A stretch of 64,000 bases of DNA from Candidatus Jorgensenbacteria bacterium GW2011_GWB1_50_10 (GTDB taxonomy: Bacteria; Patescibacteriota; Minisyncoccia; UBA6257; GWB1-50-10): positions 347 through 64,346 of the forward strand of contig LCQK01000002.1 of assembly GCA_001004105.1 (NCBI GenBank), read 5' to 3'. This document shows, piece by piece, positions 681 through 53,549 of the stretch. The notes under the pieces are model-generated. The model was not told the origin of the DNA, ran no database searches, and saw nothing but the letters and a program-made list of their open reading frames with translations. The translations under genes were made by a program, and so were the position numbers. Position 1 is the first letter of the stretch, and every line of letters starts with the position of its first letter.

Positions 681-725
681 AAAGCTTGACACTCGCAAAG
701 CAAAGGCCTTAACCTGAAAGCTGCC

Positions 726-1142
726 ATGCCAACGATTCAGCAACTGATTAAGAAAGGCAGGAAAAGGACGGTTCAAAAAACCAAGTCGCCGGCTTTTAGT
801 TTTTATTTCAATTACCAGAAAAACCGCCCGGTTGGTTCGCCTTCGCCCTTCAAGCGCGGCGTTTGTCTCAAGGTGTTTACCACCACCCCCAAAAAACCGA
901 ACTCGGCCCTGCGGAAAGTGGCGCGCGTCCGGCTCACCAACGGCATGGAAGTGACCGCATATATTCCCGGCGAAGGCCACAATCTTCAGGAACACTCGGT
1001 GGTTTTGCTCCGCGGCGGGAGAGTGAAGGATTTGCCGGGCGTCCGCTATCACATCGTCCGGGGCATTCTTGACGCCTCCGGCGTGGAAGCGAGAAAACAG
1101 CAGCGCTCCAAATACGGCGCGAAGCGCCCGAAAGCTAAGTGA
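726..1142 (+). CDS. rpsL: 30S ribosomal protein S12
   Basis: N-terminal [12 protein letters not shown] and conserved S12 core; first gene of the str operon order. Confidence 0.95.
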
Positions 1143-1155
1143 TGTCTAAATAGAA

Positions 1156-1635
1156 ATGAGAAAGAGAGGATATTATAAAAAAAGAGAGCGTCCGGTGGAC
1201 GCCGAATACAACCGCGTTGATGTTGGCCGTTTCATTAATTATTTGATGACGGGCGGCAGAAAACCCGCGGCCGAGAAAGCTTTCTACGGTGCGCTTAAGG
1301 CCATCGGAAAAACTTCAAAAGAAGAGCCGATTAAGGTTTTTGAAAAAGCGATGGAGAATGCCTCGCCGCTTGTTGAAGTGCGGTCGCGGCGGGTGGGCGG
1401 CGCGAACTACCAGATCCCGCAGGAAATCGCGCCGGACCGGCAATTCTTTTTGGCCACTCACTGGATAATTAATGCTGCCCGCAGCCGCAAGGGTAAGCCC
1501 ATTGCCGAGAAATTGGCCGAGGAATTTTTGGCCGCCGCCAAAAACGAAGGCGCTGCCATCAAGAAAAAACAGGACACGCACCGCATGGCCGAGGCGAACC
1601 GCGCCTTCGCGAGTTTCTTGAGGAAGAAAAGATAA
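1156..1635 (+). CDS. rpsG: 30S ribosomal protein S7
   Basis: S7-like sequence in the position following rpsL. Confidence 0.93.
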
Positions 1636-1645
1636 AAAATCTTAT

Positions 1646-3751
1646 ATGCCAAGACAGTATCCCATTGAAAAAGTCCGTGATATCGGAATAATCGCCCACA
1701 TTGATGCCGGGAAGACCACCGTTTCGGAACGGGTACTTTTCTACACCGGCGTCTCCCACAAAATCGGCGAGGTGCACGAGGGTGACACGGTGATGGACTG
1801 GATGGAACAGGAGCGGGAGCGCGGCATCACTATCACTTCGGCCGCGACCACCTGTTTTTGGACGCCGACTTACCGGGAGGGTGACAAGAATTTCGAGCAC
1901 CGCATCAACTTGATTGACACGCCCGGCCACATCGATTTCACCGTTGAAGTGAAGCGCAGTTTGCGCGTTTTGGACGGCGCGGTCGTGGTTTTTGATGGAG
2001 TCGCGGGCGTTGAGCCGCAATCGGAAACGAACTGGCACTACGCCGACGAATACAAGGTGCCGCGCTTATGTTTCATCAATAAACTTGACCGGACGGGCGC
2101 GAGTTTTGACAATAGTTACAGATCAATTTTGGAGCGGCTCACTCCCAACGCCGTTCTTCTTCAGATTCCCATCGGTCTGGAAAACCATTTTGAAGGCGTG
2201 ATTGATCTTTTGACGCGCCACGCCTTCCGCTTTGAAGGCGATAAAGGTGAGAAGACGGTTGGCGGCGAGGTTCCCGACAATCTTAAGGATGAAGTTGAAA
2301 AACAAAGGCATCATCTCATTGAAAAAATCGTCGAGCACGATGACGGAGCGATGCATGAATATCTGGGAGGCGGGGAGCCGGCTTTGGATAAATTAAAAGC
2401 GGTTTTACGCAAGGCGACGATCGGAAACGCTCTGGTGCCGGTGCTCTGCGGTTCGGCCCTGAAAAACAAGGGCGTCCAACTTGTGCTCGATGCGGTGGTG
2501 GACTATCTGCCCTCGCCCGCCGATCTGCCGCCGGTCAAAGGCATTAATCCCGAAACTCACGGTGAGGAGGAAAGGAAACCGAGTGACAATGAACCGCTCT
2601 CCGCACTCGCTTTTAAAATCGCCTCCGACCCTTTTGTGGGAACGCTCACTTTTTTCCGCGTTTACTCCGGTATCATGAAGCGCGGTAGCTATATTTTGAA
2701 TTCAACCAAAGGGGGACAGGAGCGAATCGGGAGAATTCTCCGGATGCACGCCAATCACCGGGAAGAAGCGGAGGAAATTTACGCGGGCGATTTGGGAGCG
2801 CTCGTGGGCCTCAAGGATACGACAACGGGCGATACATTAACTGACCCGGAGCATCCGGTTGTTTTGGAGCAAATCACTTTCCCCGAACCGGTTATCTCCG
2901 TTAGGATTGAGCCCAAGACCAAAGTTGACCAGGAAAGAATGGGCATCGCTCTCCGCCGTTTGGCGGAAGAAGACCCAACTTTCCGGCTTCGCGGAGACAT
3001 CGAAACGGGCGAGACTATCATCTCCGGTATGGGCGAACTGCATTTGGAAATTATCGTTGACCGGATGAAGCGGGAATTCAAAGTGGAAGCGAACGTCGGC
3101 CGGCCCCAGGTTGCTTACAAGGAAACCGTGAAGGGCACGGCGGAGGCCGAGGGCAAATATATTCGGCAGTCGGGCGGCCGGGGCCAGTACGGTCACGTCT
3201 GGCTTCGCTTAGAACCGATGGAACGAGGGCAGGGCTTTGAGTTCGTCGATGCCATCAAAGGCGGCATCATTCCCCAGGAATTCATCCCGGCCGCCGAAAA
3301 AGGCGTTCACGAAGCGGTGGATAAAGGCGTGCTCGCCGGTTACCCGGTCGTGGACGTGAAGGTCACCCTCTACGACGGTTCTTATCACGAAGTGGACTCC
3401 TCGGAAATCGCTTTCAAAATCGCCTCCGCCATGGCTTTTCAAGAGGCGGCCAGGCGCGCCAAAACAGTTCTTCTTGAACCGATAATGAAAGTGCAGGTCA
3501 TCGTCCCGCCAGATTTTTTGGGCGACGTGACCGGGGATTTGAGTTCCAAGCGAGGTAAGATAAAAGCCATGGGCGAGCGGGGAACGGTCCGCACCATCGA
3601 CGCGCTTGTCCCGCTCTCGGAAATGTTCGGCTATTCGACGACCTTGCGGAGTATGACCGAAGGCCGCGGCTCTTTCACGATGGAGTTTTCTCATTACGAA
3701 GAAGTGCCGGCCTCCGTCGCAACGGCAATAATTGAAGGGAAAAAGAAATAA
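1646..3751 (+). CDS. fusA: Elongation factor G
   Basis: GTPase G1 motif AHIDAGKTT, 701 aa, str-operon position. Confidence 0.95.
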
Positions 3752-3757
3752 GGTGTG

Positions 3758-3827
3758 CCCAGTACAATTACGCCGCCACTTCATGTCTTTTGCGCTCAAA
3801 GAGCGCCAGCGGTGTAGTTGTACTGGG
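3758..3827. repeat. Intergenic hairpin element, family A, copy 1: 19-bp stem (with G-U wobbles) enclosing a ~32-nt loop that carries a sub-hairpin GCGCTCAAAGAGCGC
   Basis: 5' arm CCCAGTACAATTACGCCGC at 3758-3776 pairs with GCGGTGTAGTTGTACTGGG at 3809-3827; both mismatches are G-U compatible. Paralogous to the element at 10304-10444. Confidence 0.6.
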
Positions 3828-3844
3828 TGTGGAAAAAGGCGGCT

Positions 3845-3880
3845 ATTGACAAGCGATACTCACTAGTTAATAATTGCCTT
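3845..3880 (+). promoter_or_regulatory. Candidate sigma70-like promoter for tuf (TTGACA, 17-nt spacer, AATAAT)
   Basis: TTGACA at 3846 followed 17 nt later by AATAAT, about 45 nt upstream of the tuf ATG. Confidence 0.35.
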
Positions 3881-3923
3881 TGCTCGCCTAAAAAGGCAGG
3901 TCGAATAAACATTTTTCATAGAT

Positions 3924-5123
3924 ATGGCAGAAAAAGAAAAATTTCAGCGAACTAAGCCCCACGTTAACGTGGGCACCATCGGTCACGTGGACCACGGCAA
4001 GACCACTCTTACCGCGGCAATTACCCACGTGCTCTTCATGAAAGGTCTTACCAAGAAAGAGGAAGGCGTTGACCAGATCGACAACGCGCCCGAGGAAAAG
4101 GCGCGGGGCATCACCATCGCCTTACACCACTCCGAGTACGAGTCAGAGAAGCGCCACTATGCGCACATTGATGCGCCGGGCCACGCCGATTACATCAAGA
4201 ACATGATTACCGGCGCCGCTCAAATGGATGGCGCGGTTCTCGTCGTTTCCGCGGCTGACGGTCCGATGCCGCAGACCCGGGAGCACATTTTGCTTGCCCG
4301 CCAGGTCGGCGTGCCGGCGATCGTCGTTTTCTTGAACAAAGTGGACATGGTTGACGACAAGGAACTCGTTGACTTAGTGGAATCGGAGGTCCGCGAGCTT
4401 TTGAAGAAGTACGAATTTCCCGGCGATGAAATCCCGGTCATCCGCGGCTCGGCCTTGAAGGCCTTGGAAGCGAAATCGGCCGATGACGAAGCGGCCAAAC
4501 CAATCTTGGATTTGGTGAAAGCTTTGGACGATCACATTCCGGAGCCGGTTCGGGAAACCGATAAACCGTTCCTTATGCCCGTTGAAGATATTTTCTCCAT
4601 TGAGGGCCGCGGCACGGTGGTTACCGGCCGGGCCGAGCGGGGTATTCTTAAAGTGAACGAAGAAGTGGAAATCGTTGGCTTAAAGCCGACGCAGAAGACC
4701 GTCGTGACCGGCGTTGAAATGTTCCAGAAGATTTTGGACGAAGCGCGGGCCGGCGACAACGTCGGTATCCTCCTTCGCGGCCTTAAAAAAGAAGACGTGG
4801 AGCGCGGCCAGGTGATTGCAAAGCCCGGCAGCGTCACGCCACACACTGAATTCGATTGCGAGGTCTACGTCCTCTCTAAAGAGGAAGGCGGCCGGCACAC
4901 GCCGTTCTTTAAGGGTTACAAGCCACAGTTCTATATAAGGACCACGGACGTGACGGGAGAAGTCATTTTGCCCGAAGGAATTGAAATGGTGATGCCGGGC
5001 GACACGATTAAAATTTCCGTTAAGCTCATCTCGCCGGTCGCGCTTGAAGAGAAACAGCGGTTCGCCATCCGCGAGGGCGGCAAGACAGTTGGCGCCGGCG
5101 TCGTCACGAAAATTAATAAATAA
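3924..5123 (+). CDS. tuf: Elongation factor Tu
   Basis: [18 protein letters not shown] and NKVD GTPase motifs; 399 aa. Confidence 0.96.
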
Positions 5124-5158
5124 GTCCTATCAGTCCCACCGGACCTATCAGAGAATGT

Positions 5159-5491
5159 ATGCCGAAAGCATCTGAGCAAGTTCAAAAAGAGAAATTAAGA
5201 TTGCGCATCAGAGCGTACGACGCCAAACTCATTGATTCGTCCTCAAGGCAAATCATTGAGGCTATCCGGCGTCAGGGCGGGGAAGTTGTTGGTCCCATTC
5301 CCTTACCGACCGAGATTCGGCGCTACACCGTGAACCGCTCCACTTTCGTGCACAAGAAATCCCGGGAGCAGTTCGAAATGAGGGTGCACAAGCGCCTGAT
5401 AGATATATTGAATCCCGGTCAAAAAATCATCGAATCTTTGACGGACCTGAACCTCCCCGGCGGAGTTGACGTGGAAATCAAAACTGGTTAG
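5159..5491 (+). CDS. rpsJ: 30S ribosomal protein S10
   Basis: S10 sequence (IRIRAYD...VHKKSREQFE); ends with a TAG stop. Confidence 0.95.
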   Translation: MPKASEQVQKEKLRLRIRAYDAKLIDSSSRQIIEAIRRQGGEVVGPIPLPTEIRRYTVNRSTFVHKKSREQFEMRVHKRLIDILNPGQKIIESLTDLNLPGGVDVEIKTG

Positions 5492-5533
5492 GATATTAGG
5501 GCTTTAGGCGATATTACAAACATATCAAAACAA

Positions 5534-5560
5534 TCCGCCTCGGGCGGGTTGTTTTGTTAA
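5534..5560 (+). terminator. Hairpin CCGCC-TCGG-GCGGG followed by a U-rich run, between rpsJ and rplC (possible attenuator)
   Basis: GC stem with a tetraloop followed by TTGTTTTGTT, directly upstream of the rplC start. Confidence 0.35.
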
Positions 5561-5567
5561 GGCGCTT

Positions 5568-6014
5568 ATGGAAAAAATCAAAGCCCAGAAAATCAACATG
5601 ACCCAGATTTGGAGAGGCGACCGGGCGGAGGCCGTCACGGTTCTTAAAGTTGTGGGCGGCGGTGATTCTTTTTTTTCCGAGATGAAACCGGGTGATAAGA
5701 TCATTGTAAGCGGCAAGAGCAAGGGTCGGGGATTCCAAGGCGTCGTGAAGCGCCACGGTTTCCACGGCGGTCCCAAAAGCCACGGCCAGAAAGACCGGCT
5801 CCGGGCGCCGGGTTCGATCGGCGCGACCGCGCCGCAGCGGGTCATTAAAGGCAAAAAAATGGCCGGTCACATGGGGCTCACGAAAGTGACCCTGAAAAAC
5901 ATGGAGGTGGCGGAAATTCGACCGGAGGAAAAAGTCCTAATGGTGAAAGGCGCGGTACCGGGTATGAAAGGCGCTTTCGTCGTAATTCAAGAAAATTTTA
6001 AAAATGATGATTGA
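5568..6014 (+). CDS. rplC: 50S ribosomal protein L3 (short form, 148 aa)
   Basis: L3 C-terminal core (GKGFQGVVKRHGF...KMAGHMG). No in-frame alternative start is available upstream; an in-frame stop lies at 5505. Confidence 0.88.
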   Translation: MEKIKAQKINMTQIWRGDRAEAVTVLKVVGGGDSFFSEMKPGDKIIVSGKSKGRGFQGVVKRHGFHGGPKSHGQKDRLRAPGSIGATAPQRVIKGKKMAGHMGLTKVTLKNMEVAEIRPEEKVLMVKGAVPGMKGAFVVIQENFKNDD

Positions 6015-6639
6015 AATTTACAACATTGAAAACAAAAAGACAGGCAAGATGGATTTACCCGAGGAAATTTTTCAGGCGCCTTGGCGGCCGGCTTTGGTTC
6101 ATCAAGTGATAACGGCGATTCTCTCAAACCGCCGCCGTCCGTTTGCACACGTGAAAGGCAGAGGCGAAGTGAGAGGCGGCGGCAAAAAACCGTGGCCGCA
6201 GAAGGGCACCGGCCAGGCCCGCCACGGTTCCATTCGTTCGCCTATCTGGAGAGGCGGCGGCGTCACTCACGGACCCTTGAAAGAGCGGACTTACGAAAAA
6301 AAGATAAACAAGGAAATGAAAAAGCAGGCGCTTTTTTCCGTTCTTTCCAAGAAGCTTTCCGACCAGGAACTGAAAATCGTGGACGAAATCAATTTGAAGG
6401 AAGCAAAGACGAAAATCTTAAACGGAATCCTCGGCAAATTTTTCGGCCAGAAGCGGAGCGTTCTCATCGTGCCCAAAACCGGCAACCGCGCTGTCCATCT
6501 TGCCGGCCGGAACATTCCGAAAACCACCGTCGGCAATCCGAACGCCTTGAACGTCTATGACTGCCTGGTCCACAAATACGTCGTTTTTGAGAAAGATGCG
6601 GTCGCCGATTTCGCCGGAACGTTTAAAAAAACAAAATGA
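6004..6639 (+). CDS. rplD: 50S ribosomal protein L4
   Basis: L4-like sequence in the S10-operon position. Confidence 0.9.
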   Translation: MMIEIYNIENKKTGKMDLPEEIFQAPWRPALVHQVITAILSNRRRPFAHVKGRGEVRGGGKKPWPQKGTGQARHGSIRSPIWRGGGVTHGPLKERTYEKKINKEMKKQALFSVLSKKLSDQELKIVDEINLKEAKTKILNGILGKFFGQKRSVLIVPKTGNRAVHLAGRNIPKTTVGNPNALNVYDCLVHKYVVFEKDAVADFAGTFKKTK

Positions 6640-7004
6640 GCATTCTTAATTTCAAAAAATCCCCGCCGAAGGCGGATCCGTCTCAGGCGGAGAAAAAGAA
6701 AGTTGAAGCGCCGGTTGGCGCCCACGGGCCGGCTAATTTCGGTTTGATAAGAAAGGCGTGGCTTAGCGAAAAGGCGGGCGACCTGGGTAAGTTCAACCAA
6801 TACGTCTTCCTGGTTCAAAATTCAGCCAACAAAAAGGAAGTGGAACGCGAAGTGGGCCGCCGTTACGGCGTGAAGGTCAAGGGCGTAAACATAATCCGTG
6901 AGCCGGGCAAAACCAAAAGAGTTGGTAACGTCGCCGGCCGCACTTCGGGCTTTAAAAAAGCAATAGTAACCCTGAAGGATGGAGAAAAACTGGAAATAAG
7001 CTAA
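6636..7004 (+). CDS. rplW: 50S ribosomal protein L23 (with N-terminal basic extension)
   Basis: L23 core YVFLV...KKEVEREV...VKV. Confidence 0.88.
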   Translation: MSILNFKKSPPKADPSQAEKKKVEAPVGAHGPANFGLIRKAWLSEKAGDLGKFNQYVFLVQNSANKKEVEREVGRRYGVKVKGVNIIREPGKTKRVGNVAGRTSGFKKAIVTLKDGEKLEIS

Positions 7005-7008
7005 ATAC

Positions 7009-7830
7009 ATGAAATCCTATAAACCGACAACCCCATCAAGGAGATTCATTACCGTGCCCGATTACCGGAGCTTGGCGAAGACCGGTCCTTTAAAATCCCT
7101 GACGCGCGCGGTTTTGAAAAAGGCGGGCCGGAATTCCAGTGGCCGCATCACCATGCGCCACCAGGGCGGCGGCGTTAAATCCATCTACCGCTTGGTGGAT
7201 TTCAAGGAAAATAAGGTGAACGTTCCGGGCCGGGTGGAAGCGATTGAATATGACCCGTACCGCACCGCTTTCATCGCCCGCGTCATCTACAAAGACGGCG
7301 AGCGGCGTTATATTCTTGCCTCGGACGGTCTCAAGGTGGGCACCACCATCGTCAATTCCGAAGACGCTCCTTTTGAAGTCGGCAACCGGACGAGCTTGAA
7401 GCGGATTCCGGTCGGCACTTTTGTCCATAACGTGGAAATCCTGCCAGGCAAAGGCGGCCAGCTGGGACGGGCCGCTGGTTCTTCCATTCAGATTCTCGCG
7501 AATGAAGAGGGCTACACCCACTTGAAGATGTCTTCCGGAGAGGTGAGGAAAGTGCCGTGGGGCGCTTTGGCCTCCATCGGTCAGGTTTCCAATCCGGAGC
7601 ACAATTTAATAGTTGTGGGCAACGCTGGCCGTTCCCGAAAAATGGGAATCAGGCCGACCGTTCGGGCCTCGGTCATGAACCCCCGCGACCACAAGTACGG
7701 CGGCGGCGAAGGCCGGACCCAGCGCGGCACGCGGCGACCCAAGGATAAATGGGGCAATATCACCGGCGGTCGCAAGACCCGCAAGAAAAAGAAGTGGTCT
7801 AACAAAATGATTTTGAAGCGGAGAAAATAA
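7009..7830 (+). CDS. rplB: 50S ribosomal protein L2
   Basis: L2 conserved core; 273 aa. Confidence 0.95.
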
Positions 7831-7834
7831 ATCT

Positions 7835-8161
7835 ATGTCGCGAAGCACTAAAAAAGGACCGTACGTCGACCCGAAACTCTTGAAAAAAATCGGGAAACTG
7901 GGGCCCGGCGCCAAGGAGGTTATTAAAACCTGGTCGCGCGATTCGGAAATTTCCCCCGAGATGGTCGGCTTCACTTTCGGCGTCCATAACGGCAAGAATT
8001 TCATTGAAGTAAAGGTGAGTGAGGACATGGTCGGCCACCGCCTCGGCGAATTTTCGCCGACCCGGCGTTTCACCAGGCACGGCGGCAAGATTCAGAAAGA
8101 GCTGGAGCTCCAGGCCAAGACGGCGACGCCGCCGCCTGCCCCCGCACCCGGCGCCAAATAA
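7835..8161 (+). CDS. rpsS: 30S ribosomal protein S19 (C-terminal Pro/Ala extension)
   Basis: [18 protein letters not shown] is the S19 signature. Confidence 0.93.
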
Positions 8162-8170
8162 TTTTAAACC

Positions 8171-8689
8171 ATGAAAGAAACCGTGACGGCAAAACTTAAA
8201 TACTTGAAAATCGCACCCCGCAAAACGAGATTTGTGGCGGATTTGGTGCGTGGTCTTCCGGTCGGGGCGGCGGAGGCCGAACTTCTCGGCAATCCCCGCC
8301 GGCCGGCCGTTGCGATTTTGAAACTTATCCGCTCGGCGGTTTCGAACGCCAAAAAGGCGACGCTCGCACCCGAGAAGCTCTACGTCAAGGAAATCAAAGT
8401 TGACCAGGGGCCGCGCCTCAAGCGTTTCATGCCGCGGGCTTTCGGCCGCTCCAATTTAATTGAGAAGAAAATGAGCCACGTCACCTTGGTTCTGGGCGTT
8501 GCCGAGAAACCTTTTGCCGAAAGATTTGTCATAGCTCCGAAACCCAAAAAAGAAAAGAAGGAGAAGAAAACAAAGGAACCGAAAGCAATAAAAGGCAAGG
8601 AAGAATTCGAAGAGAAAAAGGCCGCCGCTCCGAAGCCGAAAGCTCAACCGGGATTCTTCCGGAGAATTTTCCGCCGCAAGGCAGTATGA
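8171..8689 (+). CDS. rplV: 50S ribosomal protein L22 (with a K/E-rich C-terminal extension)
   Basis: L22 core at the N-terminus; low-complexity KEKKEKK tail. Confidence 0.88.
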   Translation: MKETVTAKLKYLKIAPRKTRFVADLVRGLPVGAAEAELLGNPRRPAVAILKLIRSAVSNAKKATLAPEKLYVKEIKVDQGPRLKRFMPRAFGRSNLIEKKMSHVTLVLGVAEKPFAERFVIAPKPKKEKKEKKTKEPKAIKGKEEFEEKKAAAPKPKAQPGFFRRIFRRKAV

Positions 8690-8720
8690 GATTTAAATAT
8701 TTAAACATTTAAGTATTCCT

Positions 8721-9413
8721 ATGGCCCAAAAGACAAAACCAGATTCGTTAAGATTAGGAATCAATAAACCGTGGTCCAGCCAGTGGTTTTTCAGGCGTAG
8801 CCGACGGTTTTTCCTGGAAGAAGACGAAATCATCCGGAAGCTGACGAGGGGAAAAATCCTCGCCTCCGGAGTGGCCGGCATTGACATAGAACGGGTGGGG
8901 GATGCCGTTCGAATCTCCATCCGGGCGGCGAGACCGGGGCTCATTATCGGCCGCGGCGGCAAGGGCATCGAGGAGCTGAAGAATCTGCTTCTCAAAGAAA
9001 TGAAAAATCTCCGTCGCAAGAACAAAATCGGTGGAAGTTTCTCCCTGAATTTGAACGTGGAGGAACTGAAGCGGATGGAAATCTCCGCCCCGGTCACGGC
9101 TCAGCAAATCGCTTTTGACATCGAAAGACGGCTCCCTTACCGCACTGCCATGAGACAGCAGATGGAAGGCCTGAAGCAGAATAAAGGTATTAAAGGCGGA
9201 AAAATAAAGATTGCCGGCCGGTTGAACGGCGCCGAAATCTCAAGGAGCGATTGGCTCGCTTTCGGCCGGATGCCTCTCCAGACGCTCCGGGCAAACATTG
9301 ACTACGGCGAAGCGACGGCTTACACCACCTACGGTACGGTGGGCATCAAGGTCTGGCTTTACAAAGGCGATATATTCGACAGCAAAGAGCAAAGCGCAAA
9401 TAGCAAATTGTAA
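8721..9413 (+). CDS. rpsC: 30S ribosomal protein S3
   Basis: KH-domain and S3 C-terminal conserved blocks. Confidence 0.94.
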   Translation: MAQKTKPDSLRLGINKPWSSQWFFRRSRRFFLEEDEIIRKLTRGKILASGVAGIDIERVGDAVRISIRAARPGLIIGRGGKGIEELKNLLLKEMKNLRRKNKIGGSFSLNLNVEELKRMEISAPVTAQQIAFDIERRLPYRTAMRQQMEGLKQNKGIKGGKIKIAGRLNGAEISRSDWLAFGRMPLQTLRANIDYGEATAYTTYGTVGIKVWLYKGDIFDSKEQSANSKL

Positions 9414-9449
9414 CGATTTGCGCTAAGCTATTAGCCATTTGCTAAAAAT

Positions 9450-9863
9450 ATGCTTCAACCCAAGAAACAAAAACACCGCAAAGTGCAAAAAGGACGCTCT
9501 CGCGGGCGCTTGAAGGAGACGCGCGGGGTTAATCTGGCTTTCGGCCAATTCGGGCTTCAGGCCCGTTCGGCCGCCTGGGTGACTTCCGCCCAAATTGAGG
9601 CCGCCCGCAAGGCCATCACTCACTCCTTAAAAAGGGAGGGCAAGCTCTGGATTCGGATTTTTCCCGATAAGCCGGTGACCAGTTTGCCGCCGGAGGTGAC
9701 TTTGGGCGGCGGCAAGGGCGACGTGAGCCATTATGTCGTGCCGGTTCGGCCCGGCCGGATGCTTTTTGAAGTTGACGGCGTGCCCAAGAAAGCCGCGACT
9801 GAAGCTCTGAGAATCGCCGGTCACAAACTGCCGGTTTTGACGAAAATCGTCGTCAAACGTTAA
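9450..9863 (+). CDS. rplP: 50S ribosomal protein L16
   Basis: MLQPKK...RGRLKE is the L16 signature. Confidence 0.94.
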   Translation: MLQPKKQKHRKVQKGRSRGRLKETRGVNLAFGQFGLQARSAAWVTSAQIEAARKAITHSLKREGKLWIRIFPDKPVTSLPPEVTLGGGKGDVSHYVVPVRPGRMLFEVDGVPKKAATEALRIAGHKLPVLTKIVVKR

Positions 9864-9867
9864 AACC

Positions 9868-10074
9868 ATGAAAAGAAAAGAACTGGAAAATTTCAAAACC
9901 AAGCCCCTACCCGAAGTCGACAAGGAAGTGAGACTTCACGAAGAGCGCTTGATGAATCTCAAAAAAGACTTGGTTTTGGGTAAGGTGAAAAACATCAGGG
10001 AAATCAGGCAAATTAAGAAAAGTCTGGCCCAGCTTTTAACCATCAAACGGTCAAGGGCGAATACCGACAAATAA
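9868..10074 (+). CDS. rpmC: 50S ribosomal protein L29
   Basis: Size, position and coiled-coil character. Confidence 0.8.
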
Positions 10075-10075
10075 C

Positions 10076-10303
10076 ATGAGGAAACTTCAAGGGACGGTTG
10101 TCTCCGACAAAATGAATAAGACAAGAGTGGTGGCGGTGGAGCGCCTTAAAAAGCACCCCCGCTACGGCAAGTATTTCAAGGTGACTCGGCGGTTTAAAGC
10201 TCACGACGAAAAAAACGAATATAAAACCGGGGACAAGGTTGTCATCCAAGAAACAAGGCCGATTAGTCGCGAGAAGCGCTGGGTTATCGTCGAAAAAATA
10301 TGA
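10076..10303 (+). CDS. rpsQ: 30S ribosomal protein S17
   Basis: S17 OB-fold sequence ([11 protein letters not shown]...). Confidence 0.9.
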
Positions 10304-10444
10304 CCCGGTACAATTACACCGCTTGCGCTAAAGGCGCACGTCATCAAAAATTAAAAATCAAAACTATGCTGCATACTCACCAAAGGTCAATGCGTATCAA
10401 ACCTACTCTGTCATTCAAGAGAATGGCGGTGTAATTGTACCGGG
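10304..10444. repeat. Intergenic hairpin element, family A, copy 2: perfect 19-bp stem (CCCGGTACAATTACACCGC / GCGGTGTAATTGTACCGGG) enclosing a 103-nt loop; fills the whole rpsQ-rplN gap
   Basis: The 5' arm begins at the first base after the rpsQ TGA stop. The 3' arm ends at the base before the rplN ATG. The loop begins TTGCGCTAAAGGCGCA, which resembles the copy-1 sub-hairpin. Confidence 0.65.
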
Positions 10445-10810
10445 ATGATACAAGAGCGAAGCATATTAAAAGTGGCCGACAACAGCGGAGCAAAACTCGT
10501 CCGCTGCTTCCGGATTTTGGGCGGTTCCAAGCGCCGTTACGCACAGATTGGCGATGTCATCGTGGTTTCCGTCCAGACGGCCGAGCCGCGGAAAGCGGTG
10601 AAGAAAAAGGATGTGGTGCGCGCGCTCGTTGTAAGGCAGAGGGCACCCATCCGCCGTTCGGACGGCACCCGTCTCCGCTTTGACGACAACGCCGTGGTCC
10701 TCGTTGATAAAAAGGAACCGAAAGCGACCCGAATTTTCGGGCCTATTCCCAGAGAAATCAAGGAAAAGGGCTACGACACCATTGCTTCCCTTGCGGAAGA
10801 ACTCGTCTAA
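10445..10810 (+). CDS. rplN: 50S ribosomal protein L14
   Basis: MIQ..ILKVADNSGAK is the L14 signature. Confidence 0.95.
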   Translation: MIQERSILKVADNSGAKLVRCFRILGGSKRRYAQIGDVIVVSVQTAEPRKAVKKKDVVRALVVRQRAPIRRSDGTRLRFDDNAVVLVDKKEPKATRIFGPIPREIKEKGYDTIASLAEELV

Positions 10811-10816
10811 AAATCC

Positions 10817-11122
10817 ATGAAAATCAAGAAAGGCGACAACGTAAAAATCATGAAAGGCAAGGACCGGGGGAAAACCGGCAAGGTTATTAAAGTTGACGAG
10901 GAAAAAGGCCGCCTCACGGTGGAAGGCGTAAATCTTTTCAAAAAGCACGTCCGGCCGAAGCGCCAGGGTGAAAAAGGCGAAGTCGTCTCCGTCGCGAGGC
11001 CGCTTGCCGTCTCGAATGTGATGCTCGTTTGTTCTTCCTGCGGCAAGGCCTCCCGGGTTGGATTTAGGATTGATAAGGAAATAAAAGAGCGATACTGCAA
11101 AAAGTGCAAAAGCGCAATTTAA
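10817..11122 (+). CDS. rplX: 50S ribosomal protein L24 with a C-terminal CxxC...CxxC zinc-ribbon-like extension
   Basis: KOW core MKIKKGD.V.I..GKDRGK; C-terminal CSSCGK...CKKCK. Confidence 0.88.
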   Translation: MKIKKGDNVKIMKGKDRGKTGKVIKVDEEKGRLTVEGVNLFKKHVRPKRQGEKGEVVSVARPLAVSNVMLVCSSCGKASRVGFRIDKEIKERYCKKCKSAI

Positions 11123-11125
11123 ACC

Positions 11126-11611
11126 ATGAAAAGCATAAGAGAACATATCAAAAAAATGGTGGTGAACGTCGGCTTGGGCAAGTTTCGGAACCTTTCCAGT
11201 TTCGAGGATAAGGTTTTGCCCGAGGTTGTAAAAGAAATCGCCCTCATTACCGGCCAGAAGCCTTCTTATCGGCCGGCTAAAAAATCCATCGCCGGTTTCA
11301 AGACGAGGCAAGGCGACACCATTGGTTTGCAGGTGACACTCCGGGGTAAGCGGATGGAGGATTTCTTTGCGCGGCTTATTAATTTCGTTCTGCCCCGCGT
11401 AAAAGACTTCCGGGGATTGGATGTGAGGAATGTCGACCACGACGGCAACTTGAACATTGGTTTTAAGGACCAATTCGTTTTTCCGGAGATAGTTCCCGAA
11501 AAGGCATCGGTCAATTTCGGCCTGCAGGTGACGTTTGTTACGGATTTGAAGAACCGCGAAAAAGCGATTGATTTCTACCGGAGGGTTTTGGTACCCTTAA
11601 AAAACAAATAA
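11126..11611 (+). CDS. rplE: 50S ribosomal protein L5
   Basis: L5 conserved blocks. Confidence 0.94.
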
Positions 11612-11621
11612 ATCAAAATTC

Positions 11622-11807
11622 ATGGCTAAAACTTCCGTAAGGGCCAGAGCCCGCAAAAAACCCAAATTCTCAAGCCGCACCGTGCGGCGCTGTTTCCGCT
11701 GCGGCCGGAGGCGGAGCTACATGCGCGATTTCAACATGTGCCGAATCTGTTTTCGGGAAATGGCCGGCCGCGGAGAAATTCCCGGCGTGAAAAAAGCTAG
11801 CTGGTAA
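11622..11807 (+). CDS. rpsZ: 30S ribosomal protein S14 type Z (zinc-binding)
   Basis: 61 aa with CxxC...CxxC (CFRCGR...CRIC). Confidence 0.9.
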
Positions 11808-11817
11808 TAGAACTTAT

Positions 11818-12189
11818 ATGTACATAAATTTACTGATTAGAATCAAAAACGCGAAGATGGCTGGTTTGGAAACGGTCAAGGCTCCTTACACCAAAAACGA
11901 CGAAGCGGTTGCCCTGCTTCTCAAGCGTTTCGGATTTATCAAAGACATCGAGATTAAGGGGCGGTCTTTCAAAAAAGTAATGGAAATCGATTTGGAGGAA
12001 GCAAGACCGCTTGAAGGTCTGAAATTCTTGAGCCGGCCCTCGCTCCGGCGTTACGGCAAATGCCGCGATTTCCGGAGGGTTAAAAGCGGCCGTGGACTCC
12101 TTATCGTTTCCACGCCCAAAGGAATTTTGACCGGCGAGGACGCCAAAAAAGCCAAAGTCGGCGGCGAACTGCTTTTTGAAATCTGGTAA
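11818..12189 (+). CDS. rpsH: 30S ribosomal protein S8
   Basis: S8-like sequence and position. Confidence 0.9.
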   Translation: MYINLLIRIKNAKMAGLETVKAPYTKNDEAVALLLKRFGFIKDIEIKGRSFKKVMEIDLEEARPLEGLKFLSRPSLRRYGKCRDFRRVKSGRGLLIVSTPKGILTGEDAKKAKVGGELLFEIW

Positions 12190-12194
12190 AAATC

Positions 12195-12752
12195 ATGTCT
12201 AAAATCGGCAAGCAAAAAATTGTCATTCCGGAGGGCGTTGAAGTCGCGGTAGGCGACGATTTCGTCATTTTAAAGAAAGACAAGAACGAATTGAAAGTAA
12301 TCCGGCTTCCGGGAGTGGTGATTTCCTACGATGCCGCGAAAAAGGAACTCGTTTTTTCGCTCGTGAACGTCACCAAGCAGACTAAGAGTAATTGGGGCAC
12401 GGAGCGGTCGCTCGTTTGGAACGCCGTCCAGGGTCTCACGAAAGGATTCGAAAAAACTTTGGTTTTGGAAGGGGTGGGCTACCGCATCACTAAAACCGGC
12501 GAAGATCTGGAGATGAACCTTGGTTTTTCGCATCCCGTCCGCTACAAGGCGTGCCCTGGCATCCAGTTTGAGGTCATCAAGAACACGACCTTGAAAATCC
12601 GGGGCGTGAATAAGGAAGTAGTGGGGCAGGTTGCCGCCGAAATCCGGGCTCTCAAAAAACCCGAGCCCTACAAGGGCAAGGGTTTCCACTATGAGGGCGA
12701 GGTCATCCGCCGCAAGGCCGGCAAGAAAGCGGTTGCTACAAGCGGCGCCTAA
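12195..12752 (+). CDS. rplF: 50S ribosomal protein L6
   Basis: L6 two-domain sequence. Confidence 0.93.
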
Positions 12753-12763
12753 CAAAAATTAAT

Positions 12764-13129
12764 ATGACGGGAAATAAATCTTTAAACAAATTAAGAACAA
12801 GGCGGGGGAGAAGAGTACGGTTCAAGGTAAGAGGCGTTTCTCTGCGGCCCCGGCTTTCGGTTTTCCGGGCGAACCGCCACATTTACGCCCAAATCATAGA
12901 TGACTTAAAACAAAAGACGCTCGTTTCCGCCTCCTCCCTGGAACTTATGAAAAAATCCAAGACAAAAATCCCGAAAACCAAAATCGCCGGGGTAGTGGGC
13001 GAACTTCTTGCGGAGAAAGCCAAGGTCATGAAAATCAAAGCGGTTGTTTTCGACCGCGGCGCTTACCGCTATCACGGTCGGGTAAAGGCGCTCGCCGAGG
13101 CGGCGCGGCAGAAAGGTCTGGAGTTTTAA
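12764..13129 (+). CDS. rplR: 50S ribosomal protein L18
   Basis: L18-like sequence and position. Confidence 0.88.
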
Positions 13130-13133
13130 ATTT

Positions 13134-13655
13134 ATGAACCAGAATTTCAACAGATTCGGCCGGGGACCGCGGCGGCCGCGGGAAGTCAGCGAATTCAAGG
13201 AAAAAACGCTGGAAATCCGGCGGGTGACGCGGGTCATGGCCGGCGGCAAGCGTTTCAGCTTCCGGGCTTCCGTAGTTTTGGGCGACCTGAAAGGCCGGGT
13301 CGGTTTCGGCGTGGCCAAGGGCTTGGACGTCGCCTCCGCCATTTCGAAGGCCAAGCTCAAGGCGAAGAAAAATATGATTAGAATCCCCTTGAAGGACAAC
13401 CGGACTCTCTACTACGACGTGGAAGCCAAATACGGCGCGGCGGTGGTGCGCCTGAAGCCCGCGAGGTTGAACCACGGCCTTATCGCCGGAGGCGCCGCGA
13501 GGCCGGTCTTGGAACTGGCGGGCGTGAAAGACGTCTCCGCCAAAATCATGGGCCGGACGACCAATAAAATCTCGAACGCAAGGGCGACGCTCGAAGCCCT
13601 GAAGAAAATCAAGGTCCCAGAAAAAAAGCAAGAAAATGCAACTCCACAATCTTAG
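13134..13655 (+). CDS. rpsE: 30S ribosomal protein S5
   Basis: S5 dsRBD and C-terminal domain. Confidence 0.94.
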   Translation: MNQNFNRFGRGPRRPREVSEFKEKTLEIRRVTRVMAGGKRFSFRASVVLGDLKGRVGFGVAKGLDVASAISKAKLKAKKNMIRIPLKDNRTLYYDVEAKYGAAVVRLKPARLNHGLIAGGAARPVLELAGVKDVSAKIMGRTTNKISNARATLEALKKIKVPEKKQENATPQS

Positions 13656-14052
13656 AAATCCCTTAAAAAGGAAAATCAAAAGAGTTGGGCGGGGCGGCAA
13701 GCGCGGCACTACTTCCGGCCGCGGCCAGAAGGGCCAGAAGGCGCGAGCCGGCCACCGCATTCGGCCGGCCGAACGCGACCTCTTATTGCGGTTGCCGAAA
13801 TTAAGAGGTGTGAAGAACAAGCCCAGAACTGCGCCTTCCCGCGTGATTAACGTGGGCGTTCTGGCGCGCCATGCCGAGGGCGGTGCTGTGAATCCCGACG
13901 TTCTTTTGAAAAAGAATTTCATCAAGGATAAAAGAGAAAGGGTCAAAATCTTAGGCGGCGGCGAATTGAAAAGCGCCTTGAGCGTTTCCGGAATCAGGGT
14001 TTCTGCTTCCGCCAGGGCCAAGATCGAAAAAGCCGGCGGCAGTGTAAAATAG
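13636..14052 (+). CDS. rplO: 50S ribosomal protein L15 (overlaps rpsE by 20 nt; no rpmD between them)
   Basis: L15 Gly/Arg-rich N-terminus GRGGKRGTTSGRGQKGQ. Confidence 0.9.
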   Translation: MQLHNLRNPLKRKIKRVGRGGKRGTTSGRGQKGQKARAGHRIRPAERDLLLRLPKLRGVKNKPRTAPSRVINVGVLARHAEGGAVNPDVLLKKNFIKDKRERVKILGGGELKSALSVSGIRVSASARAKIEKAGGSVK

Positions 14053-14056
14053 GGTT

Positions 14057-15328
14057 ATGGATAAAATCCTTCAGATTTGGCGGATTCCGGATTTGCGGAA
14101 AAAAATCCTGATGGTTTTGCTCTGGCTTTTGGTTTTCCGGGTTTTGGCGGCCATTCCCATTCCGGGAATTGACGCCTTTCGTCTCAACGAATTTTTCTCC
14201 TCCAACCAGCTCTTCGGCTTTTTGAACATTTTCTCCGGCGGCGGCCTTTCCAATTTGTCGGTCGTGATGCTGGGCGTCGGTCCCTACATTACGGCGGTCA
14301 TCATCATGCAACTCCTCACTATTGTTTTTCCCCAGCTCAAAAAGGCCTACTACGAAGAGGGGGCCGAGGGCCGGGCCAAATTCAACCGCTACTCGCGGTG
14401 GCTCACTCTGCCGCTTGCCGCCTTGCAGTCCTACGGATTTTTGAATCTTCTGGCTTCCCGAGAGGTCCTGCCGGCGCTCACCACCACCGGACTTTTAACC
14501 AACGTCGCCATGATTACGGCCGGGAGCATATTCCTCATGTGGATCGGCGAAATCATTTCGGAATATAAAATCGGCAACGGCGTCTCGCTCCTCATCTTTG
14601 CCGGCATTGTAAGCAGCCTGCCGCAATTCATCGTTTCGAGCGTCCTTACGTATACGCCCTCCGTGTTGCCGACCTACATTGCTTTTTTGATTTTGAGCGT
14701 GGTCGTGATTGCCGCCGTCGTCTTCGTAAACGAAGGCGAGCGGAAAATTCCCGTCTCTTACGCCAAACAAGTCCGCGGCAACCGCCTTTACGGGGGCGTG
14801 GCGACTTATCTGCCGCTCAAGGTGAACCAGGCGGGCGTGATTCCCATCATTTTTGCGATTTCCATCCTGCTTTTCCCGCAGTTCATCGCCCAGGCCGCTT
14901 CCATTTTCTCGCCGGAATTGTCGCTCAAATTGAACGAAATCGTGGTTAATATTTTCAACAATCTGGTGATTTACAGCGTGATTTACTTCCTCTTGGTCGT
15001 GGTTTTCACTTATTTTTATACCGCCATCACCTTTGACCCGAAGGAGATTTCCAAAAACTTGCAGCGTTCCGGCGGCTTCATTCCGGGCATCCGGCCGGGG
15101 GAAGCGACGGCGGAAGCCATCAGCCAAGTGGTGAGAAAGACCACGATTTTCGGAGCTTTTTTCCTCGGGTTTATCGCTATTCTGCCGAACCTCACCCAGC
15201 TTGTGACGGGAATCCAGACCTTGACCATCGGGGGCACGGCGCTCCTCATTGTCGTTGCCGTTGCGCTTGAAGTGATGAAGCAGATTGAATCGCAACTGAC
15301 GGTGCGCGAATACGAGGGGATTTTGTAA
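14057..15328 (+). CDS. secY: Preprotein translocase subunit SecY
   Basis: 10-TM protein with conserved SecY blocks; follows rplO. Confidence 0.95.
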   Translation: MDKILQIWRIPDLRKKILMVLLWLLVFRVLAAIPIPGIDAFRLNEFFSSNQLFGFLNIFSGGGLSNLSVVMLGVGPYITAVIIMQLLTIVFPQLKKAYYEEGAEGRAKFNRYSRWLTLPLAALQSYGFLNLLASREVLPALTTTGLLTNVAMITAGSIFLMWIGEIISEYKIGNGVSLLIFAGIVSSLPQFIVSSVLTYTPSVLPTYIAFLILSVVVIAAVVFVNEGERKIPVSYAKQVRGNRLYGGVATYLPLKVNQAGVIPIIFAISILLFPQFIAQAASIFSPELSLKLNEIVVNIFNNLVIYSVIYFLLVVVFTYFYTAITFDPKEISKNLQRSGGFIPGIRPGEATAEAISQVVRKTTIFGAFFLGFIAILPNLTQLVTGIQTLTIGGTALLIVVAVALEVMKQIESQLTVREYEGIL

Positions 15329-15522
15329 ACCTTTTCTTCCCCACGCCAGACGGCTTCGGCTCGGGCGATTTCGTCCCGCTTCGGCGGGACTCAACCCTTC
15401 GCTCGCTTTAGATTCGGTGATATGATGCGTCATATCACCGAATAGCTCGCTCATCCACGACTGCGGTCGGGACTCCGCCGAAGAGTTGAGGGGTAAGTCT
15501 GGCTTTGGGGAAGAAAAGGTTT
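15325..15522. repeat. Composite ~200-nt palindromic element. Its 22-bp terminal inverted repeats are derived from the 26-nt family-B motif. It contains a perfect GTCCCGC-TTCG-GCGGGAC hairpin and a central 13-bp-stem hairpin (TTCGGTGATATGA-TGCG-TCATATCACCGAA).
   Basis: 5' arm AAACCTTTTCTTCCCCACGCCAGAC at 15327-15351 overlaps the secY stop. Its reverse complement lies at 15497-15522. Confidence 0.6.
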
Positions 15523-40451: not shown

Positions 40452-40487
40452 TAACTAAAAATTCAGCAACTAAGAATTTAGTGACTA

Positions 40488-40528
40488 AAACCAAGGTGGT
40501 ATACATATGTATACCACCTTGGTTTTTT
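40488..40528 (+). terminator. Family-C palindrome AAACCAAGGTGGTATACA|TATGTATACCACCTTGGTTT followed by TTTTT; rho-independent terminator
   Basis: 18-bp stem followed by a T-run, after the DUF1653 gene. Confidence 0.6.
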
Positions 40529-42694: not shown

Positions 42695-42695
42695 T

Positions 42696-42731
42696 AACTA
42701 TTTTCTTATTCGCGCGAATAAGAAAATAGTT
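42696..42731. repeat. Perfect 36-nt palindrome AACTATTTTCTTATTCGC|GCGAATAAGAAAATAGTT immediately after the rluD stop
   Basis: Seen directly; a T-run follows 10 nt later. Confidence 0.5.
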
Positions 42732-42773
42732 AGAATTTGACTTTTTTATCCAAGAAATTATCATTACTCCATA

Positions 42774-53512: not shown

Positions 53513-53517
53513 GCAAC

Positions 53518-53549
53518 TCCATTTATGGACGACCGTCCATAAATGGAGT
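53518..53549. terminator. Bidirectional terminator palindrome CTCCATTTATGGACG-AC-CGTCCATAAATGGAG
   Basis: Lies between convergent gatB and miaA. Confidence 0.55.

What the first reader, a model, noticed from the sequence alone, without database searches (positions are those of the whole stretch)
10304..10444. Paralogous long-stem hairpin elements exactly filling ribosomal-operon intergenic gaps (rpsQ-rplN and fusA-tuf), with compensatory stem changes
A perfect 19-bp stem (CCCGGTACAATTACACCGC / GCGGTGTAATTGTACCGGG) with a 103-nt loop begins at the first base after the rpsQ TGA stop and ends at the base before the rplN ATG. A second copy at 3758-3827, after fusA, has the same stem sequence with two substitutions. 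Both substitutions keep pairing as G-U, which argues for selection on RNA structure rather than on DNA sequence. Both loops open with a related sub-hairpin (TTGCGCTMAAGRGCGC). In copy 2 the stem buries the L14 translation start. This could be an RNase III processing site, a translational attenuator, or a MITE-like insertion. I know of no described regulatory structure at these positions in str/S10/spc operons.
Basis: seen in the sequence. Interest (0 to 1): 0.72.

Follow-up and report, generated by a model that had tools for sequence, protein, structure and literature searches.

The report
Small transposon inserted at gene starts
The two hairpins are copies of a small, previously undescribed mobile DNA element (a MITE) of ultra-small groundwater bacteria; one copy landed exactly on the overlapping stop/start codons between two ribosomal-protein genes and re-created both codons by duplicating four bases, so it is an insertion rather than an evolved regulatory RNA.

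Summary
There is a perfect 19-bp inverted repeat at 10304-10444, and a second copy at 3758-3827.

- Each copy is flanked by a 4-bp direct repeat: ATGA (copy 1) and TGTG (copy 2).
- Eleven independent copies were found in Jorgensenbacteria-like and Saccharibacteria-labelled genomes. Ten have perfect 4-bp duplications.
- Two precise empty sites exist in near-identical strains. A contig encoding the identical L14 protein reads ...AAAAAT-ATGA-TACAGG..., with the S17 stop overlapping the L14 start.

The hairpin is therefore the two transposon ends pairing. The G-U "compensation" argument does not hold.

Some features are unusual:
- All seven long copies (132-169 bp) abut a host start codon that lies inside the duplication, and all point the same way as the host gene (rplN, rpsL, rplT, rpsS, grpE, two unknown).
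- None of the four short copies (68-70 bp) abuts a start codon.
- Seven of eleven copies sit beside translation-apparatus genes.
- The long form carries a 22-codon mini-ORF that ends in the right end-repeat, 10-11 nt before the host ATG.
- Its sense strand is depleted of stop codons.

I infer, without proof, that translation running through the element keeps the downstream gene expressed. No parent transposase was found.

The parts
10300..10303 (+). Left copy of the target-site duplication, ATGA. It holds the S17 stop TGA (10301-10303) and the original L14 ATG (10300-10302).
   Evidence: The empty site in L066 has a single ATGA.
10304..10322 (+). Left terminal inverted repeat of copy 1 (long form): CCCGGTACAATTACACCGC.
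10324..10338 (+). GC-rich sub-hairpin next to the left repeat (TGCGCT-AAA-GGCGCA). Other copies have a hairpin of different sequence at this position.
   Evidence: pair 24/63: GC x2, CG x2, GU x1.
10300..10434 (+). 44-codon read-through ORF. It starts at the duplicated original ATG and ends at a TAA inside the right repeat.
   Evidence: frame f2 is open; the only f2 stop is at element position 129. No protein homologues were found.
10366..10434 (+). Conserved 22-codon mini-ORF, MLHTHQRSMRIKPTLSFKRMAV. It has an A-rich unpaired leader, and its stop is 10 nt before the L14 ATG.
   Evidence: The same length and frame occur in 5 of 6 distinct long copies.
10426..10444 (+). Right terminal inverted repeat of copy 1: GCGGTGTAATTGTACCGGG.
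10445..10448 (+). Right copy of the target-site duplication, ATGA. It now serves as the L14 (rplN) start codon.
3754..3757 (+). Left target-site duplication of copy 2: TGTG.
3758..3827 (-). Copy 2, the short form (70 bp). Arms are at 3758-3776 and 3809-3827, and the sub-hairpin is at 3792-3806. It is probably inverted relative to copy 1.
   Evidence: In one search the minus orientation scores 12.8 + 12.9 bits against 9.5 bits with the long-copy model.
3828..3831 (+). Right target-site duplication of copy 2: TGTG.
3846..3874 (+). Promoter-like site TTGACA-17-AATAAT for tuf. It is not part of the element; it lies downstream of copy 2 and is left intact.
   Evidence: 11 of 12 matches.

Best explanation
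Both hairpins are copies of a non-autonomous transposon (a MITE) that circulates in Patescibacteria (CPR bacteria).

Shown:
- The element has 19-bp terminal inverted repeats and makes a 4-bp target-site duplication.
- It exists as a long form (132-169 bp) and an internally deleted short form (68-70 bp).
- It is present or absent between near-identical strains.
- Copy 1 inserted into the ATGA where the S17 stop overlapped the L14 start. Duplicating ATGA re-created a stop on the left and a start on the right, which is why the element appears to fill the gap exactly.
- Copy 2 sits in the fusA 3' region, upstream of the tuf promoter-like site.

Inferred:
- The element was moved in trans by a DDE-type transposase that cuts the target with a 4-bp stagger. 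That transposase was not found.
- The element is co-transcribed with the operon, and its two ends pair into the 19-bp RNA stem.
- The insertion is tolerated in front of an essential gene because ribosomes still start at the duplicated original ATG (10300, with its native context). They read through the stop-poor sense strand and the mini-ORF, and so melt the stem. They terminate at the TAA in the right repeat, 10 nt before the L14 ATG, where they can re-initiate.

On this view the hairpin is a by-product of transposon ends, not an evolved operon regulator.
For: Target-site duplications: 10 of 11 independent copies have perfect 4-bp flanking repeats (ATGA x3, TGTG, TATG, CATA, CACA, CATG, CTTG, TCAA), and one has 3 of 4. 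The chance of a match is 1/256 per site.

Empty sites:
- L066 encodes the identical L14 protein and reads GGAAAAAT-ATGA-TACAGG. The window has ATGA + 141 bp + ATGA.
- L084 is 100% identical to L055 over the 235 nt upstream and reads AATC-CATG-GCTAGAG without the 141-bp element.

Spread: copies occur at unrelated loci in a Saccharibacteria-labelled MAG (L001), a Jorgensenbacteria MAG (L003) and several metagenome contigs.

No known RNA family matches, and there is no + strand terminator or promoter in copy 1.

For the translation inference:
- 7 of 7 long copies abut a host start codon (0-1 nt) in the sense orientation, against 0 of 4 short copies. On the ten copies found by the pattern scans, Fisher p is about 0.005.
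- The mini-ORF has the same 22 codons in 5 of 6 distinct long copies.
- Sense-strand stop trinucleotides number 14, against 30.9 +/- 3.5 in dinucleotide shuffles. The antisense strand has 55 against 42.3 +/- 4.0.
- Genes of this operon have no Shine-Dalgarno motif, only A-rich leaders and gaps of about 1-11 nt. The mini-ORF has the same kind of leader, and it is predicted to be unpaired.
Against: - No autonomous element with these end repeats was found in the window, in about 90 fetched loci, in the genome or metagenome scans, or in viral contigs. The transposase family is therefore unknown.
- The family is small: 11 copies, several probably from one population. The orientation and stop-depletion statistics rest on related sequences.
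- The mini-ORF shows no third-position excess of variation (reading), so the peptide itself is not under visible selection.
- The conserved block CAAAGGTCA/ATGTTATAT also matches a weak antisense promoter-like site, TTGACC-16-CATAGT.
- The ORF from the left ATG is open to the end in only 3 of 6 distinct long copies, about what the low stop density alone would give.
- There are no transcript or ribosome data.
Confidence: 0.9

Rival explanations
1. The hairpin is an evolved cis-regulatory RNA of the ribosomal-protein operons, kept by selection on RNA structure. It could be an RNase III processing site, a translational attenuator of rplN, or an autoregulatory protein-binding site.
For: - The stems are very stable.
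- The stem ends at the rplN start codon.
- One both-sided G-C to A-U change and several G-U pairs occur in the arms.
- 7 of 11 copies lie next to translation genes.
Against: - The element is absent from a contig with the identical L14 protein and from other relatives.
- It is flanked by 4-bp duplications.
- The same element sits before grpE, a pilin-like gene and unknown genes.
- The short copies appear to occur in both orientations.
- Rfam finds nothing.
- G-U against A-C on the transcribed strand is 8 to 3 and is mostly one inherited polymorphism.
Confidence: 0.03
2. It is a MITE, and its RNA hairpin has a secondary effect on the host. RNase III would cut the 19-21 bp stem and uncouple the upstream and downstream halves of the operon transcript, as reported for Correia elements in Neisseria.
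For: - The perfect 19-bp stem, extended to about 21 pairs in the predicted fold, is near the usual length of an RNase III substrate.
- The review PMC10969869 reports RNase III cleavage at the end repeats of Correia elements in co-transcribed mRNAs.
Against: - There are no transcript data.
- I did not check whether this genome encodes RNase III.
- Cleavage would separate rplN and all distal spc genes from their promoter-proximal mRNA, which seems costly.
- This does not explain the orientation bias or the stop depletion of the long copies.
Confidence: 0.25
3. It is a palindromic element of the REP/PATE type, moved by a HUH (IS200/IS605-like) transposase, or a recombination or replication artefact that produced palindromes.
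For: It is a long perfect palindrome-like structure located in intergenic DNA.
Against: - Such elements insert without target-site duplication, but here 10 of 11 copies have perfect 4-bp duplications.
- The boundaries are sharp and identical in all copies.
- Empty sites retain exactly one copy of the 4 bp.
Confidence: 0.02

Closest known systems
Correia elements (CREE/NEMIS) of Neisseria
   Same: - Both are 100-160 bp MITEs with long terminal inverted repeats.
- Both exist in long and internally deleted forms.
- Both insert next to genes and are co-transcribed.
- The end repeats fold into a long RNA stem. For Correia elements, RNase III cleavage at that stem is reported (review PMC10969869).
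   Different: - Correia elements have 26-bp repeats and a TA duplication (my own knowledge), occur in hundreds of copies, and are confined to Neisseria.
- This family has 19-bp repeats, a 4-bp duplication, few copies, and lives in Patescibacteria.
- The start-codon abutment and the mini-ORF seen here are not mentioned for Correia elements in that review, which contains no occurrence of 'start codon'.
ERIC/IRU and Rickettsia palindromic elements (RPE)
   Same: Both are small palindromic mobile sequences that carry open frames and can lie within translated regions without destroying the gene (PMC10969869). The depletion of sense-strand stops here is the same kind of adaptation.
   Different: - RPEs insert in-frame inside coding sequences and become part of the protein.
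- The element here sits at the gene boundary, on the start codon. Its frames mostly terminate just before or on the host ATG, so the host protein is unchanged.
Insertion-sequence families that make 4-bp duplications (IS5 group, IS1380, IS701, ISH3). This list is from my own memory of ISfinder and is a lead only.
   Same: They share the 4-bp target-site duplication and short terminal inverted repeats. IS1380-family ends are listed as starting with CC, as here.
   Different: No transposase gene and no full-length element with these repeats was found, so no family can be assigned.

Membership tests
MITE (non-autonomous terminal-inverted-repeat transposon) | Terminal inverted repeats at sharp, reproducible boundaries | tested here: met
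   19-bp repeats with 0-2 mismatches in all 11 copies.
MITE (non-autonomous terminal-inverted-repeat transposon) | Target-site duplication of fixed length | tested here: met
   A 4-bp direct repeat is perfect in 10 of 11 copies and 3 of 4 in L051.
MITE (non-autonomous terminal-inverted-repeat transposon) | Small size and no transposase gene | tested here: met
   Copies are 68-169 bp. The longest internal ORFs are 44-58 codons, and the window's 44-residue ORF has no homologues among 1.84 billion representative proteins.
MITE (non-autonomous terminal-inverted-repeat transposon) | Several copies at unrelated loci | tested here: met
   Copies lie at S17|L14, fusA|tuf, before rpsL, rpmI|rplT, rplB|rpsS, before grpE, trmD|rpsB, upstream of rpmE, upstream of a pilin-like gene, and before two unknown genes.
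MITE (non-autonomous terminal-inverted-repeat transposon) | Presence/absence polymorphism with a precise empty site that holds one copy of the duplicated bases | tested here: met
   L066 against the window and L084 against L055.
MITE (non-autonomous terminal-inverted-repeat transposon) | A cognate autonomous insertion sequence with matching ends | tested here: inconclusive
   None was found in the window, the fetched loci, or the genome, metagenome and viral scans. The scans needed exact matches and were capped.
Correia element family | 26-bp repeats, TA duplication, Neisseria host (feature values from my own knowledge) | tested here: not met
   Here the repeats are 19 bp and of a different sequence, the duplications are 4 bp and mostly lack TA, and the hosts are Patescibacteria.
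REP/PATE elements (HUH transposase) | Insertion without target-site duplication | tested here: not met
   Duplications are present at 11 of 11 copies.
Intrinsic terminator | GC-rich stem followed by a U tract on the transcribed strand | tested here: not met
   No + strand terminator-like site was found at either copy. The stems are followed by AUGAUAC and UGUGGAA.
Curated regulatory RNA, such as a ribosomal-protein leader (Rfam) | A match to a covariance model, and conservation at the orthologous position | tested here: not met
   No Rfam match at E <= 1 in 3600-10600, and only a tRNA in the whole window. The element is absent at the orthologous junction in relatives.
RNase III substrate | About two turns of uninterrupted double-stranded RNA that is cleaved in vivo | not testable with these tools
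   The 19-21 bp perfect stem is predicted. Cleavage cannot be assessed here.
Leader-peptide translational attenuator | A short ORF whose translation remodels a structure that masks the downstream start | tested here: inconclusive
   A mini-ORF crossing the right arm is present and conserved in length. No alternative pairing or stalling signal was identified, and there are no expression data.

The most novel reading that the evidence does not exclude
The long form may be a MITE adapted to land on start codons of highly expressed genes, mostly translation-apparatus genes.

How this would work:
- The 4-bp duplication copies the ATG.
- The original initiation site then drives ribosomes into a sense strand purged of stop codons.
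- A conserved mini-ORF ends in the right repeat, 10-11 nt before the new host ATG. In the ATGA type, the frame ends in a TGA that overlaps the host ATG.
- Translation thus melts the transposon hairpin and is relayed to the host gene.

The element would be a portable translational-coupling cassette that makes insertion into essential operons harmless. That would explain why it accumulates in ribosomal-protein operons of tiny, tightly packed CPR genomes.
Probability: 0.3. Interest if true: 0.75.

Novelty: new variant of a known kind. Interest (0 to 1): 0.5.

Why it matters
At the basic level, this turns an apparent operon regulator into a dated insertion event. It also adds a MITE family for Patescibacteria. 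My four literature searches found no paper on MITEs in these bacteria and no paper about this end repeat.

Practical uses:
- The presence/absence polymorphism is a strain-level marker in groundwater populations.
- Near-identical ends in MAGs labelled Saccharibacteria and Jorgensenbacteria hint at transfer between CPR lineages.

If the start-codon pattern holds in a larger census, the element would show how a selfish element can enter essential, translationally coupled operons without harm. It would also be a natural test bed for re-initiation and hairpin melting by ribosomes in organisms that lack Shine-Dalgarno-led initiation. And it would provide a compact cassette for coupling gene expression.

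Tried and rejected
1. Link to tuf. The arm 19-mer equals the tuf codons for KPGTITPH in one Saccharibacteria MAG (L030). The window's own tuf reads KPGSVTPH and has no match within 3 mismatches. The other roughly 40 single hits of the genome scan are unrelated. I treat the tuf match as chance.

2. Parent transposon. None was found:
- No second pair of arms within 5 kb in any locus.
- None with up to 5 mismatches.
- No viral contig.
- nhmmer over all held DNA found only the known copies.
- phmmer of the 44-residue ORF found nothing.

4. Coding selection on the mini-ORF. Variable sites are spread over codon positions roughly 5/3/4 in the conserved eight codons (reading), so there is no evidence that the peptide matters.

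5. Outward promoter or terminator in copy 1. None was found on the + strand, only weak antisense matches.

6. G-U as evidence of RNA selection. The count is 8 G-U against 3 A-C on transcribed strands, which is not significant and is largely one inherited polymorphism.

7. L087 looked like a third context, but it is an assembly chimera. It joins the rplB flank of L090 to the grpE flank of L062 across two near-identical copies.

8. Empty site for copy 2. None was obtained. The relative L081 instead carries a solo, decayed right end (AATGGTGGCGTAATTGTGCT, 17 of 20 to my reading of the family's right-end consensus) in the same spacer.

Full report
**1. The observation**

The window carries the str/S10/spc ribosomal-protein gene cluster on the + strand. 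Pfam identifies EF-G (1646-3751), EF-Tu (3924-5123), L29, S17 (10076-10303), L14 (10445-10810) and L24.

Copy 1:
- The arms CCCGGTACAATTACACCGC (10304-10322) and GCGGTGTAATTGTACCGGG (10426-10444) are perfectly complementary, with 103 nt between them.
- They occupy every base between the S17 TGA and the L14 ATG.

Copy 2:
- It lies at 3758-3827, with 19-nt arms, two G-U pairs on the + strand and 32 nt between the arms.

Both are well beyond chance:
- The arm occurs four times in the window within three mismatches, against 0.00 expected.
- The predicted folds are far more stable than shuffles: -54.6 kcal/mol (z = -7.4) and -43.0 kcal/mol (z = -5.5).

Three details of the finding are inaccurate:
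- Copy 2 fills only 70 nt of the 172-nt fusA-tuf gap.
- Its arms differ from those of copy 1 at four positions, not two.
- Its GC sub-hairpin lies at the 3' end of the loop, not at the opening.

**2.

Copy 1 is flanked by ATGA on both sides (10300-10303 and 10445-10448). Copy 2 is flanked by TGTG on both sides (3754-3757 and 3828-3831). This is the signature of a cut-and-paste or copy-and-paste transposon. It implies that, before insertion, the S17 stop and the L14 start overlapped as ATGA.

**3. Copies elsewhere**

Genome scan. An exact scan of one genome per species for CCCRGTACAAYTACRCCGC gave 43 stretches.
- Only two had paired arms: a MAG labelled Saccharibacteria (L001) and a Jorgensenbacteria MAG (L003).
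- The single hits are unrelated sequence. One of them is the tuf codons KPGTITPH in another MAG, which I treat as coincidence.

Metagenome scan. A scan for the right end gave seven more contigs with real copies, five of them from one sample.

ORF look-up. Looking up a 58-residue ORF that a gene caller had called inside one copy led to a further copy between rplB and rpsS (L090).

Totals:
- There are eleven independent complete copies.
- Ten have perfect 4-bp flanking repeats (ATGA x3, TGTG, TATG, CATA, CACA, CATG, CTTG, TCAA). One has 3 of 4.
- Seven copies are long (132-169 bp) and four are short (68-70 bp). The short copies lack the central part (alignment).

**4. Empty sites**

First empty site:
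- The L14 protein of the window is encoded identically on contig JBFOMS010017856.1 (L066). There, S17 and L14 overlap by 4 nt.
- The alignment shows GGAAAAAT-ATGA-TACAGG, where the window has ATGA + 141 bp + ATGA.
- More distant relatives have a 1-nt S17-L14 gap and no element.

Second empty site:
- Contig L084 is 100% identical to L055 over the 235 nt upstream.
- It reads AATC-CATG-GCTAGAG, where L055 has CATG + 141 bp + CATG in front of rplT.

Other points:
- Copy 1 is identical in contigs from at least five independent assemblies, and NCBI record LCPO01000002.1 carries copy 2. The element is therefore not an artefact.
- The nearest named relatives of the L14, L20 and GrpE proteins are Jorgensenbacteria.

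**5. Conclusion on identity**

The element meets the structural and population criteria of a MITE: inverted ends, a fixed-length duplication, small size without a transposase, dispersed copies and precise empty sites.

- The one missing item is the autonomous parent. I did not find it in any held sequence, in the capped scans, or by protein search.
- No Rfam family matches.
- There is no terminator or sense promoter in copy 1.
- Copy 2 lies upstream of an intact tuf promoter-like site, TTGACA-17-AATAAT.

A conserved operon regulator is therefore excluded.

- On transcribed strands, the family shows 8 G-U against 3 A-C arm mismatches.
- Most of these are one A/G polymorphism at arm position 15 that is shared by descent.

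**6. Unusual features**

Position and orientation:
- All seven long copies abut a true host start codon, with 0-1 nt between the right end and the ATG. The ATG lies inside the duplication.
- All seven have the same orientation as the host gene.
- The host genes are rplN (window), rpsL (L001), rplT (L055), rpsS (L090), grpE (L062) and two unknown genes (L003, L051).
- In element orientation, the duplications of the long copies all contain ATG (ATGA, TATG, CATG).
- None of the four short copies abuts a start codon. They lie after fusA, after the trmD stop and 28 nt before rpsB, about 135 nt upstream of rpmE, and about 45 nt upstream of a pilin-like gene.
- For the ten copies found by the pattern scans, 6 of 6 against 0 of 4 gives Fisher p of about 0.005.
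- The orientation of the long copies is unambiguous: 116 against 16 bits for copy 1. The orientation of the short copies is less certain.

Neighbourhood:
- Seven of eleven copies are next to ribosomal-protein or translation-factor genes.
- Such genes make up only roughly a tenth of these genomes (my own estimate).

**7. A possible reason: translation through the element**

Initiation signals:
- Genes of this operon have no Shine-Dalgarno motif. They have A-rich leaders and gaps of about 1-11 nt, so they probably depend on coupling.

The mini-ORF:
- The long form carries a mini-ORF of 22 codons in five of six distinct copies.
- The window's peptide is MLHTHQRSMRIKPTLSFKRMAV. Others include MLYLQQRSLFSDLSSSFERMAV and MLYIQERSKYINLSLSFKRMAV.
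- It has an A-rich leader that is predicted to be unpaired.
- Its TAA lies in the right repeat (GCG GTG TAA), 10-11 nt before the host ATG.

The left copy of the duplicated ATG keeps the native leader and opens a frame into the element:
- In the window (10300-10434, 44 codons) and in L003, this frame runs to the TAA in the right repeat.
- In L062 and L090, it runs 58 codons to a TGA that overlaps the host ATG.
- In L051 and L055, it stops 6 and 17 nt before the mini-ORF ATG.
- In L001, it overshoots.

Stop-codon content:
- Across the interiors of the six distinct long copies, the sense strand has 14 stop trinucleotides. Dinucleotide-preserving shuffles give 30.9 +/- 3.5.
- The antisense strand has 55, against 42.3 +/- 4.0.

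I infer that ribosomes entering from the old start site melt the 19-bp stem and are handed on to the host gene. This would explain why only sense-oriented long copies survive on start codons.

Caveats:
- The copies share ancestry and the sample is small.
- The mini-ORF shows no codon-position signature.
- Its conserved 5' block also resembles a weak antisense promoter.
- Nothing here measures expression.

**8. Comparison with known systems**

- The closest analogues are the Correia elements of Neisseria: long and short forms, co-transcription, and a stem formed by the end repeats that RNase III cuts.
- ERIC and RPE elements are also close, as small palindromic elements that carry open frames in translated regions (review PMC10969869).
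- This family differs in its ends, its duplication, its host phylum, and its position on start codons. That review has no occurrence of "start codon".
- Four full-text searches found no description of MITEs in CPR bacteria, and no paper about these bacteria or transposons contains this end repeat. The one sequence hit was an unrelated neuroscience paper.

**9. Verdict**

- The finding is real.
- Its MITE reading is correct (confidence about 0.9).
- Its RNA-selection reading is not supported.
- The family is new, and its long form behaves unusually. The translation relay is a hypothesis, with probability about 0.3.

Noticed in passing
window 15327-15522; L081 15085-15239: A second, unrelated long hairpin starts inside the secY stop codon. 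It has 17-bp perfect arms (AAACCTTTTCTTCCCCA / TGGGGAAGAAAAGGTTT), a GC-rich 162-nt interior, and lies in a 608-nt gap after secY. The relative L081 has a different 21-nt inverted repeat at the same place after secY. There is no Rfam match and no clear target duplication. It could be another mobile hairpin family or a structured RNA.
   Followed up: partly
L081 11166-11255, 8894-9037, and the S17-L14 gap 9918-10000: The ribosomal-protein operon of this relative has several other enlarged gene junctions. At least one further inverted repeat (18-nt arms) starts at the rplE stop codon. Hairpin-type insertions at operon junctions therefore seem recurrent in these genomes.
   Followed up: no
L081 3034-3056: A solo, decayed right end of the same element (AATGGTGGCGTAATTGTGCT, 17 of 20 to my reading of the family's right-end consensus) lies 11 nt after the fusA stop in the fusA-tuf spacer. 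It appears to be in the opposite orientation to window copy 2. This suggests an independent or older insertion in the same spacer.
   Followed up: partly
window 3752-3833 and L044 945-1024: Window copy 2 and the short copy in L044 lie at different loci (fusA-tuf against upstream of a pilin-like gene). They share the same 8-bp target, GGTGTGGA, with TGTG duplicated. This hints at target preference for the short subfamily.
   Followed up: no
L030 669-687: The 19-nt end repeat is identical to the tuf codons for (K)PGTITP(H) in a Saccharibacteria MAG. The window's tuf reads KPGSVTPH and does not match. I judge this a coincidence.
   Followed up: yes
L087 (whole contig) compared with L062 and L090: L087 is an assembly chimera. 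Its left flank is the rplB 3' end of L090, and its right flank is grpE of L062. The two are joined across two near-identical 169-bp copies that differ at 1 nt. This shows very recent transposition within one population.
   Followed up: yes
window 69-15328 (gene starts): None of about 26 consecutive genes has a recognisable Shine-Dalgarno motif. Their leaders are A-rich, and most gaps are -20 to +13 nt.
   Followed up: partly
window 40487-40526, 42695-42732, 53516-53549: Three perfect palindromes of 40, 38 and 34 nt, with 0-2 nt between the arms.
   Followed up: no
L062 125-155 and L090 8643-8673: The 169-bp variant carries an internal 13-14 bp hairpin whose arms copy the first 12 nt of the end repeat (CCCAGTACAATT...AATTGTACTGGG). 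This looks like a nested or duplicated end.
   Followed up: no
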